Assembly: GCA_964016885.1 (NCBI GenBank) | Contig: OZ024742.1 | Span: 78,182,001-78,246,000, forward strand | Length of the DNA: 64,000 nt | Direction: 5' to 3' | Origin: Eledone cirrhosa | Lineage: Eukaryota | In this document: piece after piece, positions 41,901 to 61,580 of the stretch | Layout: the number at the start of each line of letters is the position of its first letter | Position numbering within the stretch: position 1 is the stretch's first letter | Translations under genes and position numbers: made by a program | Notes under the pieces: generated by a model | What the model saw: the letters and a program-made list of their open reading frames with translations, nothing else | What the model was told of the DNA's origin: nothing | Databases searched by the model: none

Positions 41901-42774
41901 ATTACGCTGTCGAAATATTCGATAAATATTCCGCTACGGCCGACGCGAAGGGCTAGTTTCGGTTATTTGTTGGAGATTTCTTCATAGAAGCCTCATTCTT
42001 ATAGCCTGGTCTATTCGATTTTTTATATAGTTAATTACGCTAATTAGGAGAGGAAATGGTATATATTTTATCTTGTGATTCTATAGACATGTTTTATGAT
42101 ATATAGCTCTGATTATTTCATTTATTAAATTTTCATTGAGCCACAAAGTGACCCGTTCCAAAACACGTATATGTATGTATGTATATATATATATATATAT
42201 ATATATGTAAACTTTTATATGTAGTAATCTCCCATTAGGTTGATATACAAATTTGGCTGTATTGTGCTGTGCTTTCTAGCAAAAAAGCCACCAGCCGTAA
42301 GCAACTACCACACCCCTTCCAACCTGACCGCTACTACGTCACGATTCTTAGCCATTTTGAATGAATTCTTGGCGCGATCACTTTGGAAAATTTAGTGTCT
42401 AGATCAGAGCAAATCTCCTGATGAATCTGATGCTCGAGGTACATAATTATTACATAATTATTGGAAATCTCAAAATGCGGACGAAACCATGGTAGAGGTA
42501 TTTAAATATATTCTATTTTCTCCTAGTTTATTTTACACCTAATTCTGTTTAATTGACTGTATCTGGGCGATTACGCTGTCGAAATATTCGATAAATATTC
42601 CGTTGCGGCCGACGCGAAGGGCAAGTTTCGGTTATTTGTTGGAGATTTCTTCATAGAAGCCTCATTCTTATAGCCTGGTCTATTCGATTTTTTATATAGT
42701 TAATTACGCTAATTGGGAGAGGAAATGGTATATATTTTATCTTGTGATTCTATAGACATGTTTTATGATATATA
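41901..42774 (+). mobile_element. Non-coding hammerhead element with ~205-bp terminal direct repeats (retrozyme/PLE-like)
   Basis: 41901-42105 is nearly identical to 42570-42774; hammerhead at 42411-42503; (TA)n on both sides. Confidence 0.8.
42411..42503 (+). ncRNA. Type-I hammerhead ribozyme, intact core
   Basis: aaaucuc-CUGAUGA-aUCUG...CGGAc-GAAAC-CAUG-GUA-gagguauuu; palindromic loop 3. Confidence 0.75.
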
Positions 42775-42849
42775 TATATATAAATTGCATATATATGTAA
42801 TACTAACTAAAGACCAAATCATGGCCCTAAACATATTCCTTAACAAAAT

Positions 42850-43640
42850 TGATCATAATTCTAATACTATGCCTAACCAAAACCCGAACTCGTAGTGCAA
42901 ACAAGCTCCTAACCTAATCATGAACCTAAAATTAAACCTAATACTAAACCTTAACCATGAACTATAGCCCTTATGCTAATCCTACGCTAACGATAACCTA
43001 ACGCTAGCTCTTAGCCTCAACAAATAAACTAACCGAAACAATAACACTTAACATCAAGCTCACCCTCTCCCTACCCCTAAGCAGTTAGTTAACCCTTGAT
43101 ACTACATCGTACCCTAAACCTAAACTTAAACATACCCCTAACACAAATACACATCCTAACTCGGAACACTAATCCTAAACCTAACAGTAAACCTATCCAT
43201 AATACTAGCTCCAATAACAGTAACAATAATCATAATTACAACAGTAAACATAAACATAGTAACTATTAGTTCACCCTTACACTAAACCTAACAATAGCAC
43301 CAACCCTAACCCTAAATGTAACCCTTACGCTAATTCTAACCCTAAACTTAAACATAAAACTAATCGTAACTCCAAACTTAATCCTAATTCCAAACCTAAA
43401 CCTAGCAAAAATTCTAATCCTAATAACCCTAATCATACGCCTAACCCCTACGTTAGAATTAACCCAAAAATCTAACGCTAAACCTAAAGGAAACATACGC
43501 CTAACCCTAACCCCAACCCTAGGTCTAACACTAACACTAAACCTGAAACCTTACCCTCACACCCAGCCCTGCCCCTAAACCAACCCTATCCCCAGATCTA
43601 TACCCTACCCTATCTCCGACCCCATACTGAGCCTAATGTA
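42850..43640. repeat. Degenerate (CCCTAA)n-like telomere-type repeat
   Basis: Many ccctaa/cctaa/actaa variants with rough 6-bp periodicity, e.g. 'aaccctaaccctaaa', 'cctaaccctaaccccaaccctagg'. Confidence 0.7.
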
Positions 43641-44489
43641 TTTTCACATCCATTTGTAAAGTGATAAATACGACGATTTACTGTTGGTTAACGCTTATAT
43701 ATTTGTAATCAATGTTACATCCCATCTGTAGCTGAGGATATTGTAGCATATGCACGAATTATGAATAAATATTAGTTCTGCATCTGAATATAGACCGCTC
43801 TTTTTCTTGTCGAAAATGGCACTACTCAAATACATACAGACACACATTATATATACTCCCGTGTATATATGAGAGCGTGTGTGTATATATATGCATGTAT
43901 GTAAGCATGTATGTATACATATTTATATATGTATATATATATATATATATATATATATATATATATATATATATATATATATATATATACAGTATATAAT
44001 TAGAGCAAGCATCATATCCGCATTCATTGTGAATGTCATTCAGAGCATCTAAGGATTTGTATGTATTTGTAAGAAAGATAATTTACTTAATGGAAAAGGC
44101 ATAAGGAACGTAATTATCTATGAAACGAAAGCATCACCTAAGCACGTAGCAGGAATACAATATATTCTTATATCAGTATGAGAAGATGTAGATTTAATAT
44201 TAAATCCTCTCAACCATAAATCCTCTCCTGAAATCAAGAAAAACACGGCTTTATACAGATATGTATGACGATTAAAAATATCGATGTTTGACCATTTTGA
44301 TATCCACAATAATAGAACACACTTAAACAAATGGATAAAGTTAATATCTATTTTGCACTGCAGAAATGCACCAAATTAGAGCGAAAAATACTGCTGTATT
44401 AAACAAAGGGAAGGAAATATTTGCATTATGGAGCTTCAAAAGCACGTTCTAAAAAGATATTTACAACAGAATAGACGTTGGTTTTCTTC

Positions 44490-45400
44490 TTCATTTCCTA
44501 TCCGCGTTACTGAGCGTCGAGGAACAAGGATAATTGCTCCAATGCTCTCCACTTGCTTCTCTCTCTCGCTACGATCAGGCACTCCACCGGCGTTCTTCCC
44601 ATCCATTCCTTGATGATATTACTCCAGCGTCTCCTTACTTGTCCACTCGATCTTTTACCCTTGATGCGTCCCTCCCGGGTGTGGGTGTAGATGATCTAGG
44701 CCCTGATGTCATGACCAAAGATTTGTAGCTTTCGCCTCCTTATGGGCACGACCATCTGCCTTTCTATTCCCACCTCCTCCAGGACCAACTAGTTAATTTT
44801 GTGGTCCTTCCAGCTGATACACAGCATGCGCCTGTATCATGTCACAAACAACATCAGTTTGTTAACATCAATGGTTTGCAGTGTCTAGGCTTGGCAGACA
44901 TAAAGTGCTACCGGCCAAACTAGGGACTTCAGAAGCTTCAATCTGATGCTCTTCTTGAATTCATGGTGCTTCCAAAAGGTGTTGTGGGACATAAATACAG
45001 ATCTTGCTGCCTTTAGTCAGGCCCTGATCTCATTTCCACTACTCGCAATTTGATCAATGCTGGTTCCCAGGTACTTTTATTTTTATTTTTATTGACCAAC
45101 TGCTCCGGTTCCTTAGTGGCTTCTATGAATCTCGTCTTCCTGGTGTTGATCTCCAGCTGATACTAACAGAGAAGCTTTCCACCTCGTCAAGTTGTCTTTC
45201 GACTGCCTCTGGAGATGTTGCTATCAGCACGATATCATTAGTAAAACAAAAGTTTGAGATTTCGACCACTAAATTGTTACTTCGACCCAGGACAGATTGT
45301 TTGTTGATTATCGCATGGCCCATCCAAGTAGAAGTTGAAGCACGTGATTAACATGATGTAGCCCTTCTGCACACTTTTCAGGTGTTATACCTCTCCGTTA
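44490..45400 (-). mobile_element. Decayed RTE-like LINE fragment
   Basis: 'ISNFCFTNDIVLIATSPEAVERQLDEV' (degenerate F/YADD region) and downstream RTE-like blocks. Confidence 0.65.
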
Positions 45401-45584
45401 GAACTATAGGATGTAAATAAATCTTACCCGCTAGATGTTTACAATTTACAATGCACTCTATGCTTCTTGTTGTACGAAGGAGTAGTTATATTTTGACAGT
45501 GATGAAAGAGTTAATACTTGTTTGTAGTTATTACAACGAAATATATTAGAAATGTAAAATGCACTTATCCGTTTAACAATGTAC

Positions 45585-59724: not shown

Positions 59725-59995
59725 AGCGCTAGCAGCCGCAATGTATCATAAAGTTAACCTGCATAAATACTGTGTACCGAGACTACAAAAACGTGTACAG
59801 ATATATATACACATCTAATATGTAGGTATGTGAACATGCCATAAAATCTGAATTTCCCTGTAAATTGAAAAAAATGATAAGATTTTTTTAATCGATTTTC
59901 AGATTTTATAGGATACTCATCAGATGTGTATATCATCCAATCAACCACAAGAAAACATATATCTGATGGGTATATAGTGTATATATACACATTCG
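59725..59995 (-). mobile_element. Non-coding PLE-like element with hammerhead core at about 59884-59928
   Basis: Minus strand: CUGAUGA-guauccuauaaaaucu-GAAA-A-UCGA-UUA; colinear with 30465-30720; stems I and II eroded. Confidence 0.6.
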
Positions 59996-60029
59996 CTCTT
60001 AGTATAATTCTGGAATCGACGTGCTAATA

Positions 60030-60243
60030 ATGATTTCTACTATGGGCACAAGGCCAGCAATTTGGAGGGAGAGGAAAGTCGATTAAATCGACCCCAGTGC
60101 ATTACTGGTGCTTTATTTTATCGACCCCGTAATGAGGAAAAGCAAAGCTAACTCCGGCGGGATTTGAACTCAAAACGTAAAGAGTTGTAACTCTATGCTG
60201 CAAAGCATGTTGTCCGATGCTCTACCGATACTGCCAATCCACC
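60030..60243 (-). mobile_element. tRNA-derived SINE, longer subfamily
   Basis: Same head and tail as 13445-13631 with an extra ~30-nt block 'ggagggagaggaaagtcgattaaatcgacc'. Confidence 0.85.
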
Positions 60244-61068
60244 TCATGCTAATAATTGTAACAATATCCCGCGCGGCAAGTGTCCCATTGAGCAGCAGGG
60301 ACAGCCCGGTTTTAGGTTGACTAATGCTAAACGACGTAAATAGAGGCAAAGAGGAATAAACAGGTTAATAATCCAATATAGAGTGCCATTACCAAAGAAA
60401 CGCAGTCGACGAAAATGGGGTACCAGCGGGAAGTTACCGACTGTGCATGATCAATGAATTGAATGCGTATGACATGCTTGAAACTACGGAACAGAGATTA
60501 TGTGACAAGGCAGGAGCGATAAGAATAAACGAATGATTGTCAGCGATAGAACTTACAACAATCAAACGAATTAAATCTGTTAAAAATGTACAAGATGATG
60601 CTAAAGAGGTTGAGGTGTAAGCAGTTTAGCAATGTTGATGAAGTAGATATAATAGAGCCTGATATAGGTGAAGAAGAAAGGATTGTAAAGGTGAATACGA
60701 GTGGAGTCTTTTTGATCGTTAGAATGCTGGCATAAATTATGTGATAACTGTGGATTATCAAAATATCTTAGATGGATTAATGGAATTGGTAAATACCAAG
60801 TAGGGAGATTTTATGAGTGATTTTAAGAAAGCTGACAAGTAGAAGTTGAACCAAGAAACAAAGAAGGTAAATAAGTCGATGAAAATATGTGAGAACAAAC
60901 AACATAACAGAAACCAACCGGCTTATGATGGGGGCAAGTAGAAATGTTACAGAAAATATGAAACTGAAGGTCTAAAGAAAAGCAAGACCTTAACAATTTA
61001 AAATAACCAAATATCCATGGTAGAAACAATTGTTTTGTTAAGGAATATGTTTAGGGTATGTAGGTATA

Positions 61069-61580
61069 CATACATACTTACATTTAAGTATCAGCCGTAC
61101 TAAGAGTGAGAAATGAAAAAATCGTTTCATCCTTTTCCATTTATCGTTTTCGATGCGCCCGGCTGACTAACTCACTCGATATGCAAATTAGGCTGCTCGG
61201 CCGTTAATATGCATAAGGAACGTATATACTTTCAGACGTTCAATCATCTGGCAGGAAGGTAAACGATGCTGATGATAGCTAATAAGCTTGAAACTAGTAC
61301 ATCGTTCCTTTGTCAGTGTTGAACAAAGAGGCGACGATGGTTGCCTGAACATTGTACAGCTTAATTCGGGCTGTTTGTTTGTTTACAAAGAAACCGAACA
61401 TTATAATAAATGTTCGGTAAACCCATACGTACATATATATATGTGTGTGCATGTATGTATATATATACATACTACTGTACGTCTGTATATATATATGTAT
61501 GTACATGTACATCCATACTTACATTTAAGTATCAGCCGTACTAAGAGTGAGAAATGAAATTTTGTTTCATCCTTTTCCAT
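61069..61580 (+). mobile_element. Non-coding hammerhead element with ~70-bp terminal direct repeats
   Basis: 61069-61140 is nearly identical to 61510-61580; unit about 440 bp; followed by (TA)n. Confidence 0.8.
61262..61306 (+). ncRNA. Minimal type-I hammerhead ribozyme, intact core
   Basis: AACGAUG-CUGAUGA-uAGCU(aaua)AGCUu-GAAAC-UA-GUA-CAUCGUU; perfect 7-bp stem I that extends further out, palindromic stem III (ACUAGU); predicted cleavage after 61299. Confidence 0.88.

What the first reader, a model, noticed from the sequence alone, without database searches (positions are those of the whole stretch)
41901..61580. Two different retrozyme-like HHR elements inserted independently at the same duplicated (TA)n site
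Seen: in each arm, homology stops at a (TA)n tract and resumes for 24 bp (42825-42848 = reverse complement of 61033-61056). Between lies a different non-coding element in each arm: 41901-42774 (unit ~670 bp, 205-bp terminal repeat, CAUG-loop HHR) and 61069-61580 (unit ~440 bp, 70-bp terminal repeat, ACUAGU HHR). Established: monomer-plus-partial-repeat structure is what reverse transcription of a circular or tandem RNA yields, as in non-LTR retrozymes and PLE tails. Inference: small ribozyme-processed, possibly circular RNAs mobilised by PLE enzymes with strong (TA)n targeting, caught in a natural replicate experiment.
Basis: partly seen in the sequence, partly recalled or inferred. Interest (0 to 1): 0.8.

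Follow-up and report, generated by a model that had tools for sequence, protein, structure and literature searches.

The report
Two hammerhead mini-retroelements at twin microsatellites
Two unrelated short non-coding elements, each carrying a predicted self-cutting hammerhead RNA, end on matching TA microsatellites in a duplicated stretch of an animal genome; they are likely parasites of TA-targeting Penelope-like jumping genes, a known kind, and such insertions are common in this stretch of DNA.

Summary
Element A (41901-42774, 669-bp unit) and element B (61056-61580, 441-bp unit; it starts 13 bp earlier than stated) are unrelated 1.2-1.3-unit insertions, each with one type I hammerhead, at homologous (TA)n tracts of inverted arms. 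Public DNA runs show that B is a very high-copy family shared with a second species, with a head-to-tail junction in other copies and a preferred 3' end on (AT)n about 281 nt from the ribozyme cut. That goes against freely permuted ends. A Hydra-clade Penelope-like fragment (a clade known to target TA and carry hammerheads) lies in the window, and B's ribozyme has the layout of many Hydra ribozymes. No sequence link from A or B to that fragment was found. The double hit is not surprising: 7 of 7 hammerhead elements in the window have (TA)n within 300 nt downstream. B's two terminal repeats differ at 8 of 85 columns, which fits a mixed template better than one circle. Circles, cleavage and A's copy number are untested, and the arms could be two haplotypes. 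Verdict: new members of the known animal retrozyme / non-autonomous PLE class.

The parts
39446..41889 (+). Left arm of the inverted duplication (LINE fragments and other repeats); its true outer end probably lies beyond the window's reach
40948..41139 (+). SINE present in the left arm only; a single copy of its short flanking repeat in the right arm marks the empty site
41890..41901 (.). (TA)n on the 5' side of element A
41901..42774 (+). Element A: 669-bp unit plus 205-bp terminal repeat (41901-42105 = 42570-42774), non-coding, 34% GC
42413..42499 (+). Type I hammerhead of A: 5-bp helix I, core 42418-42424, long helix II with A-C at its base, palindromic helix III, predicted cut after 42494
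42769..42782 (.). (TA)n at the 3' end of A; the unit's own internal TA bases give micro-homology
42783..42824 (.). 42 bases present on the left only, likely lost on the right at B's 5' junction
42825..42848 (+). 24-mer, last shared bases of the arms; its composition fits the adjoining array (top 1% of 17,980 background 24-mers)
42849..43620 (+). Degenerate CCTAA-rich array, the likely ancestral neighbour of the 24-mer
60245..61032 (.). Single-copy spacer end joined to the right-hand 24-mer
61033..61056 (-). Right-hand copy of the 24-mer, directly abutting B
61056..61580 (+). Element B: 441-bp unit plus 85-bp terminal repeat (61056-61140 = 61497-61580); very high-copy family; 37% GC; strongly self-paired (z -6.9)
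61262..61306 (+). Type I hammerhead of B: 7-bp helix I inside a longer rod, core 61269-61275, U-U at the base of helix II, palindromic helix III, predicted cut after 61299
61580..61680 (.). (TA)36(TG)15 at the 3' end of B
61666..63940 (-). Right arm of the inverted duplication
23232..26100 (+). Decayed Hydra-clade Penelope-like element (GIY-YIG with CxCX5C linker at 24360, inverted 241-bp terminal copies each with a hammerhead, next to (TA)n): the type of enzyme proposed as mobiliser

Best explanation
A and B are unrelated non-coding hammerhead-bearing repeats that likely borrow the reverse transcriptase and GIY-YIG nickase of TA-targeting Penelope-like elements (most likely the Hydra clade) and were likely inserted separately at the two homologous (TA)n tracts. 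Steps: (1, inferred) a head-to-tail source is transcribed, the hammerheads cut as dimers, and the monomer would close into a circle of about 441 nt (B) or 669 nt (A). (2, inferred) The PLE nickase opens a (TA)n tract, and the nick primes cDNA at a preferred point of the RNA about 280 nt 3' of the ribozyme cut, helped by a few TA bases. (3, inferred) The enzyme copies across the re-formed ribozyme junction and past its own start, in B probably after jumping to a second, slightly different RNA, and stops at a variable point. Shown: 1.2-1.3 units with one intact hammerhead in the middle, 3' ends on (TA)n, B's high copy number and junction. With one hammerhead each, these two copies would not release a monomer themselves.
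For: Unit-plus-partial structure, with the ends away from the cut site. B: summed contig depth 1e5-2e6 against 11.2 in the single-copy flank in run X1, 7356 contigs laid, and abundant in organism B (the tool warns this is no copy number). Contigs cross the unit junction at 61140/61143 (X4 record 9; 63 X1 contigs at 61131) and depth does not drop upstream of the cut. Loose ends behind 61118 run into (AT)n at about 61143 (89 X1 contigs, 2 X5 contigs). Of 12 shown family variants in the ribozyme rod, 5 are at unpaired sites, 5 keep the pair and 2 break it; none of the 40 shown variants hits the invariant core (35 variants not shown). 7 of 7 hammerhead elements have (TA)n within 300 nt downstream against 19.8% of random positions (5 of 5 without A and B). 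Hydra-type PLE fragments lie at 23232-26100 and 18700-19424. B's U-U helix II base matches 14 of 25 Hydra families in File S2 of PMC8557442 (counted by eye).
Against: No circle or cleavage shown. A and B have no sequence similarity to the window's PLE ends (scores 22 and 20 against shuffle maxima 21 and 19). The U-U base also occurs in an axolotl retrozyme, so it is not specific to Hydra. B's repeats differ at 8 of 85 columns, which one circle copied 1.2 times does not give. This B copy shares several minority letters with organism B's majority (61091-61093, 61131, 61167), so it may be older than the arm divergence suggests. A's hammerhead is not its lowest-energy fold (-9.4 constrained against -12.2 kcal/mol), and A's family was not examined. 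Loose-end lists omit reads that continue along the unit, so the share of copies with the preferred end is unknown.
Confidence: 0.55

Rival explanations
1. Same elements and same enzyme, but the template is linear: an uncut read-through transcript of a tandem array or a 1.x-unit donor that ends in (UA)n. The hammerhead rarely cuts, and no circle takes part in transposition.
For: B's two repeats look like two family variants: both difference clusters sit where the family varies. A fixed 3' end and a variable 5' end are the ordinary PLE pattern (PMC8557442). Minimal PLE hammerheads cut poorly even as dimers, and 8 of 9 Xenopus retrozyme dimers did not cut in vitro.
Against: A's repeats differ no more than the arms do (4 of 205 against 15 of 628, p=1.0), which fits one template. 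Coral, mussel and axolotl retrozymes make abundant circles. B's unit is strongly self-paired.
Confidence: 0.3
2. A and/or B are merely 5'-truncated 3' ends of longer autonomous PLEs inserted as partial tandems, not self-contained retrozyme units.
For: Most metazoan minimal hammerheads are attributed to truncated PLEs. One X5 contig has 255 unrelated bases before 61143. A was not tested against reads.
Against: For B the unit junction recurs at the same place in two species, and no common upstream body is among the 24 loose ends shown. No frame of 100 codons lies within A; those overlapping B are frames through the TA/TG repeats.
Confidence: 0.12
3. The arms are not paralogues but two haplotypes of a heterozygous inversion, assembled as flank-spacer-inverted flank. 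A and B would then be allelic insertion polymorphisms. Their independence would stand, but the 'duplication' would be an artefact.
For: Arm divergence of 0.7-2.4% is of the order of invertebrate heterozygosity (recalled). Divergence rises toward the inner junction (p=0.0015). The arms differ by several presence/absence insertions.
Against: Gene conversion between inverted paralogues gives the same gradient. The right junction exists in a public contig, which both models allow. Arm depth was not measured.
Confidence: 0.2

Closest known systems
Animal non-LTR retrozymes (Cervera and de la Pena 2020, PMC7229834; Li, Clavereau and Pollet 2026, 10.64898/2026.07.22.740005)
   Same: Non-coding, low-GC, self-paired units with one type I hammerhead with a short palindromic helix III; head-to-tail junctions; high copy number; proposed PLE dependence. 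Unit sizes fall within the 51-972 bp range of the 2026 preprint.
   Different: Here the copies are dispersed 1.2-1.3-mers with one hammerhead, below the preprint's two-unit 'active' rule. A is longer than the 150-450 bp of the 2020 paper. A preferred 3' end on (TA)n is not stated in the parts I read. No RNA evidence.
[quoted passage not shown] 2021, PMC8557442; includes Hydra-1_Obim of Octopus bimaculoides)
   Same: (TA)n targets, a hammerhead near the 3' end, fixed 3' termini, partial tandems. B's ribozyme has the U-U helix II base of 14 of 25 listed families, and A's helix III resembles that of Hydra-1_Obim.
   Different: A and B encode no protein and match no Hydra end in the window. Four short motifs from A, B and the window's PLE were not found in the paper's supplement (line breaks can hide matches).
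Non-autonomous Chlamys elements such as MRC1 (PMC8557442 section 10)
   Same: Non-coding PLE partners that form pseudo-LTRs and head-to-tail insertions; microsatellite bias.
   Different: Those generally resemble their autonomous partner at the 3' end and mostly lack hammerheads; no partner similarity was found here.

Membership tests
Animal non-LTR retrozymes | Type I hammerhead with short palindromic helix III | tested here: met
   Descriptor hits in A and B and B's fold. Rfam models do not hit, and A's helix II is imperfect.
Animal non-LTR retrozymes | Small non-coding unit, GC below 50%, self-paired | tested here: met
   441 bp, 37% GC, z -6.9; 669 bp, 34% GC, z -3.4; no coding frame
Animal non-LTR retrozymes | Head-to-tail repeats, multi-copy family | tested here: met
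   Met for B only: junction-crossing contigs and very high depth in two species. A not examined.
Animal non-LTR retrozymes | [quoted passage not shown] | tested here: inconclusive
   Each insertion here has one hammerhead; source arrays could not be searched because no genome is held
Animal non-LTR retrozymes | Self-cleavage and circular RNA | not testable with these tools
   No RNA holder listed
Non-autonomous partner of Hydra-clade PLEs | 3' end inserted in (TA)n, preferred 3' terminus | tested here: met
   Both 3' ends on (TA)n; run-off at about 61143 in other B copies
Non-autonomous partner of Hydra-clade PLEs | Partial tandem (pseudo-LTR) structure | tested here: met
Non-autonomous partner of Hydra-clade PLEs | 3'-end sequence similarity to an autonomous family of the same genome | tested here: inconclusive
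   None to the two Hydra fragments in the window; rest of the genome unavailable
Non-autonomous partner of Hydra-clade PLEs | Inverted 5'-truncated companion copies | tested here: inconclusive
   10 of the 15 joints shown change strand, all from raw RAD reads with 1-5 starts and none in contigs; may be library chimeras
Autonomous Hydra-clade PLE | RT plus C-terminal GIY-YIG frame with CxCX5C linker | tested here: not met
   Absent from A and B; present only in the separate fragment at 23232-26100

The most novel reading that the evidence does not exclude
B is a retrozyme with tens of thousands of copies or more whose dispersed insertions are cDNA records of a ligated circle: a Hydra-clade PLE enzyme primes at one fixed site about 280 nt from the ribozyme cut, runs round the circle and can jump between different circles. 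A does the same with nearly the same 280-nt spacing. The family would then tie animal retrozyme circles to one named enzyme clade and let genome statistics alone decide whether the circle is the transposition intermediate.
Probability: 0.25. Interest if true: 0.65.

Novelty: new member of a known kind. Interest (0 to 1): 0.33.

Why it matters
Whether animal retrozyme circles are the transposition template, and which enzyme moves them, is still open: the 2026 preprint says the mechanism remains to be elucidated. A very abundant family with a preferred TA-joined 3' end, variable 5' ends and polymorphic terminal repeats is good material for that test. The two-hit coincidence itself adds little, because such insertions sit on about 7 of the window's 42 (TA)n tracts. 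Searches for cephalopod or octopus hammerhead elements returned no description of such families, but the host taxon is not established and repeat libraries were not searchable.

Tried and rejected
No genome is held, so genome-wide copy analysis was impossible. No RNA holder was listed; run X5's library type is not on record and was not used as evidence of expression. Pattern scans of viral contigs and metagenome contigs found 0 matches. Look-ups of earlier findings by place and by sequence found nothing. Protein searches with the GIY-YIG fragment found no scored relative; a LINE protein search gave no useful host name, so 'octopus-like' is recalled from repeat composition and unverified. ARAGORN found no tRNA gene. 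Rfam hits below threshold were TA-hairpin microRNA models. Rejected: (a) that the left arm is a 3' transduction starting at a third hammerhead. A core-degenerate fold at 60989-61043 has its predicted cut 2 nt from the duplication end, but such folds arose in 3 of 12 shuffles, its region is single-copy, part of it equals a SINE 3' end, and the 24-mer fits the left array better. (b) That 39446 is the outer end of the duplication: the 52-bp repeat there is a target duplication of one LINE inserted in another. (c) My first reading of 29,994 RAD reads as head-to-tail proof: they are ordinary 3' parts of the unit laid on the first repeat, because 61423-61578 was skipped (corrected in note).
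Full report
Setting. The window is animal DNA rich in microsatellites, LINEs and SINEs. No whole genome is held. The host is not identified: 'octopus-like' is my recall from repeat composition, and one search gave no confirming name.

Observation. Self-comparison shows inverted arms 39446-41889 and 63940-61666, with 10 substitutions in 1499 bases outside and 15 in 628 inside (p=0.0015). 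Beyond the (TA)n tracts the only shared sequence is the exact 24-mer. Its composition fits the CCTAA-rich array to its right in the left arm (top 1% of 17,980 background 24-mers) and not the sequence beside it in the right arm (35th percentile from the top). The left context is therefore likely ancestral and the right is the new junction. That junction is present in one 870-base public contig with no difference. The outer end is not at 39446: the 52-bp repeat there flanks an RTE-type LINE inserted in another LINE, and the inserted LINE runs on in the right arm.

Elements. A spans 41901-42774: a 669-bp unit plus a 205-bp repeat with 4 differences, with (TA)n on both sides. B spans 61056-61580: a 441-bp unit plus an 85-bp repeat with 7 substitutions and one gap in two clusters. 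B has (TA)n only at its 3' end and abuts the 24-mer at its 5' end; 42 bases seen on the left are missing. Relative to the arms, A and B point in opposite directions. They share no similarity (score 18 against shuffle maximum 17). Each has one type I hammerhead, cut after 42494 and 61299. B's folds as such (z -3.55). A's has an A-C mismatch at the base of helix II and costs about 3 kcal/mol over the best fold. Rfam recognises neither. Both units are self-paired beyond shuffles.

Family evidence for B. One read-laying run covered 60245-61578 with 4 of the 8 listed runs. In X1 the flank has depth 11.2 and B has 1e5 to 2e6 over 61055-61414; 7356 contigs were laid. The tool warns this is no copy number, but B is plainly very abundant, also in organism B (X4). 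61423-61578 was skipped as repeat. Contigs cross the point where the 3' end meets the unit start (X4 record 9, 61070-61187; 63 X1 contigs at 61131), so the head-to-tail junction is a family feature. Among the 24 loose ends shown (723 not shown), those behind 61118 run into (AT)n at about 61143 (89 X1 contigs, median 12 letters; 2 X5 contigs of 32). That is within about 3 nt of this copy's own 3' end (61580 equals 61140). The other leading loose ends continue as family variants or mark restriction sites. So there is a preferred 3' end, whose share is unknown because continuing reads are not listed. Depth does not fall upstream of the cut site. Of 12 shown variants in the ribozyme rod, 5 are unpaired, 5 keep the pair and 2 break it; none of the 40 shown hits the invariant core (35 not shown). 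This copy carries several letters that are the majority in organism B but not in X1 or X6, so it belongs to an older subfamily.

How common. Descriptor scans and inspection give hammerheads at 3333(-), 8826(-), 23332(-)/26000(+) (one element), 30664(-), 42418(+), 59923(-) and 61269(+). All 7 elements have (TA)5 or more within 300 nt downstream, against 19.8% of random positions (p about 1e-5; 5 of 5 without A and B). For B the nearest tract is inside the unit, and the terminal one is 281 nt away. With 42 merged (TA)n tracts in the window, hits on both members of a homologous pair are unremarkable at genome scale.

Enzyme. The fragment at 23232-26100 encodes a GIY-YIG domain (Pfam below threshold; Atlas feature score 0.96) with a CxCX5C linker and no CCHH, the stated marks of the Hydra clade. 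By eye it follows the Hydra rows of the paper's alignment without being near-identical to Hydra-1_Obim. A second decayed copy lies at about 18700-19424. Hydra families insert into (TA)n and carry hammerheads. B's ribozyme has the U-U helix II base seen in 14 of 25 listed Hydra families (my count), though also in an axolotl retrozyme. Neither A nor B matches the window's PLE ends, so the link is inferred.

Mechanism. Shown: more-than-unit copies, an intact internal ribozyme, TA-joined 3' ends, B's abundance and junction. Inferred: PLE-primed reverse transcription from a preferred site, across the ribozyme junction and past the start. A circle is my preferred template (0.55), as proposed for PLEs in PMC4209133 and in line with circles shown for other retrozymes. 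B's repeats differ more than the arms (p=0.01), which needs a jump between RNAs, a heterogeneous linear multimer (0.3) or greater age masked by conversion between the arms. A's repeats fit one template. The arms may also be two haplotypes of an inversion (0.2); this was not testable and does not change the independence of the insertions.

Papers seen. 10.64898/2026.07.22.740005: parts 1-3 of 5, abstract to discussion; its supplements were not seen and may list related families. PMC8557442: passages, outline, sections 10 and 11, supplement searches and part 2 of 59. PMC7229834: parts 2-3 of 6 and passages. PMC4209133 and PMC6765202: passages. PMC13282606: parts 1-2 of 3 and a supplement search with 0 hits for hammerhead, ribozyme or retrozyme; its repeat library is external and unseen. 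PMC6962438: two passages, 235 hammerhead hits in giant squid. Searches listed no paper describing these families.

Verdict. Real, and well explained as new members of the animal retrozyme / non-autonomous PLE class. The coincidence is ordinary for this genome. The useful residue is B's preferred 3' end and mismatched repeats as a test of the circle model. Interest 0.33.

Noticed in passing
window 42494-42774 and 61299-61580: Both unrelated elements end 274-281 nt downstream of their predicted ribozyme cut; the other hammerhead elements reach (TA)n at 52-205 nt. Coincidence or a spacing rule, unexplained.
   Followed up: partly
window 60989-61043 (+): Hammerhead-shaped fold with a perfect 9-bp helix I and palindromic helix III but only 4 of 7 core positions; its predicted cut lies 2 nt from the duplication's inner end. 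Probably a junction hairpin or chance (3 of 12 shuffles).
   Followed up: partly
window 3150-3635: About 480-bp element between two (TA)n tracts with 80% inverted ends and a central hammerhead on the minus strand; a rod-like retrozyme candidate.
   Followed up: partly
window 23232-26164 and 18700-19424: Two decayed Hydra-clade PLE fragments; the first has inverted 241-bp hammerhead-bearing ends (98.8% alike) and a 55-bp duplicated piece.
   Followed up: partly
window 30437-30685 and 59692-59976: Two 75-77% alike copies of another hammerhead-bearing family, each ending on (TA)n.
   Followed up: partly
window 39386-40190: RTE-type LINE fragment nested in a BovB-like LINE (family labels recalled) with a 52-bp flanking duplication; the left arm lacks the inserted LINE's 3' part.
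   Followed up: partly
window 45959-58874: Cluster of three long LINE frames in the spacer, including an open 1204-codon endonuclease-RT frame with a 714-codon upstream frame.
   Followed up: no
window 42849-43620: About 770 bp of degenerate telomere-like CCTAA repeats directly beside the duplication junction.
   Followed up: partly
window 14433-14624 and 31015-31245: Palindromic element flanked by (TA)n; the second copy is a near-perfect 121-bp hairpin and the first lacks its centre.
   Followed up: no
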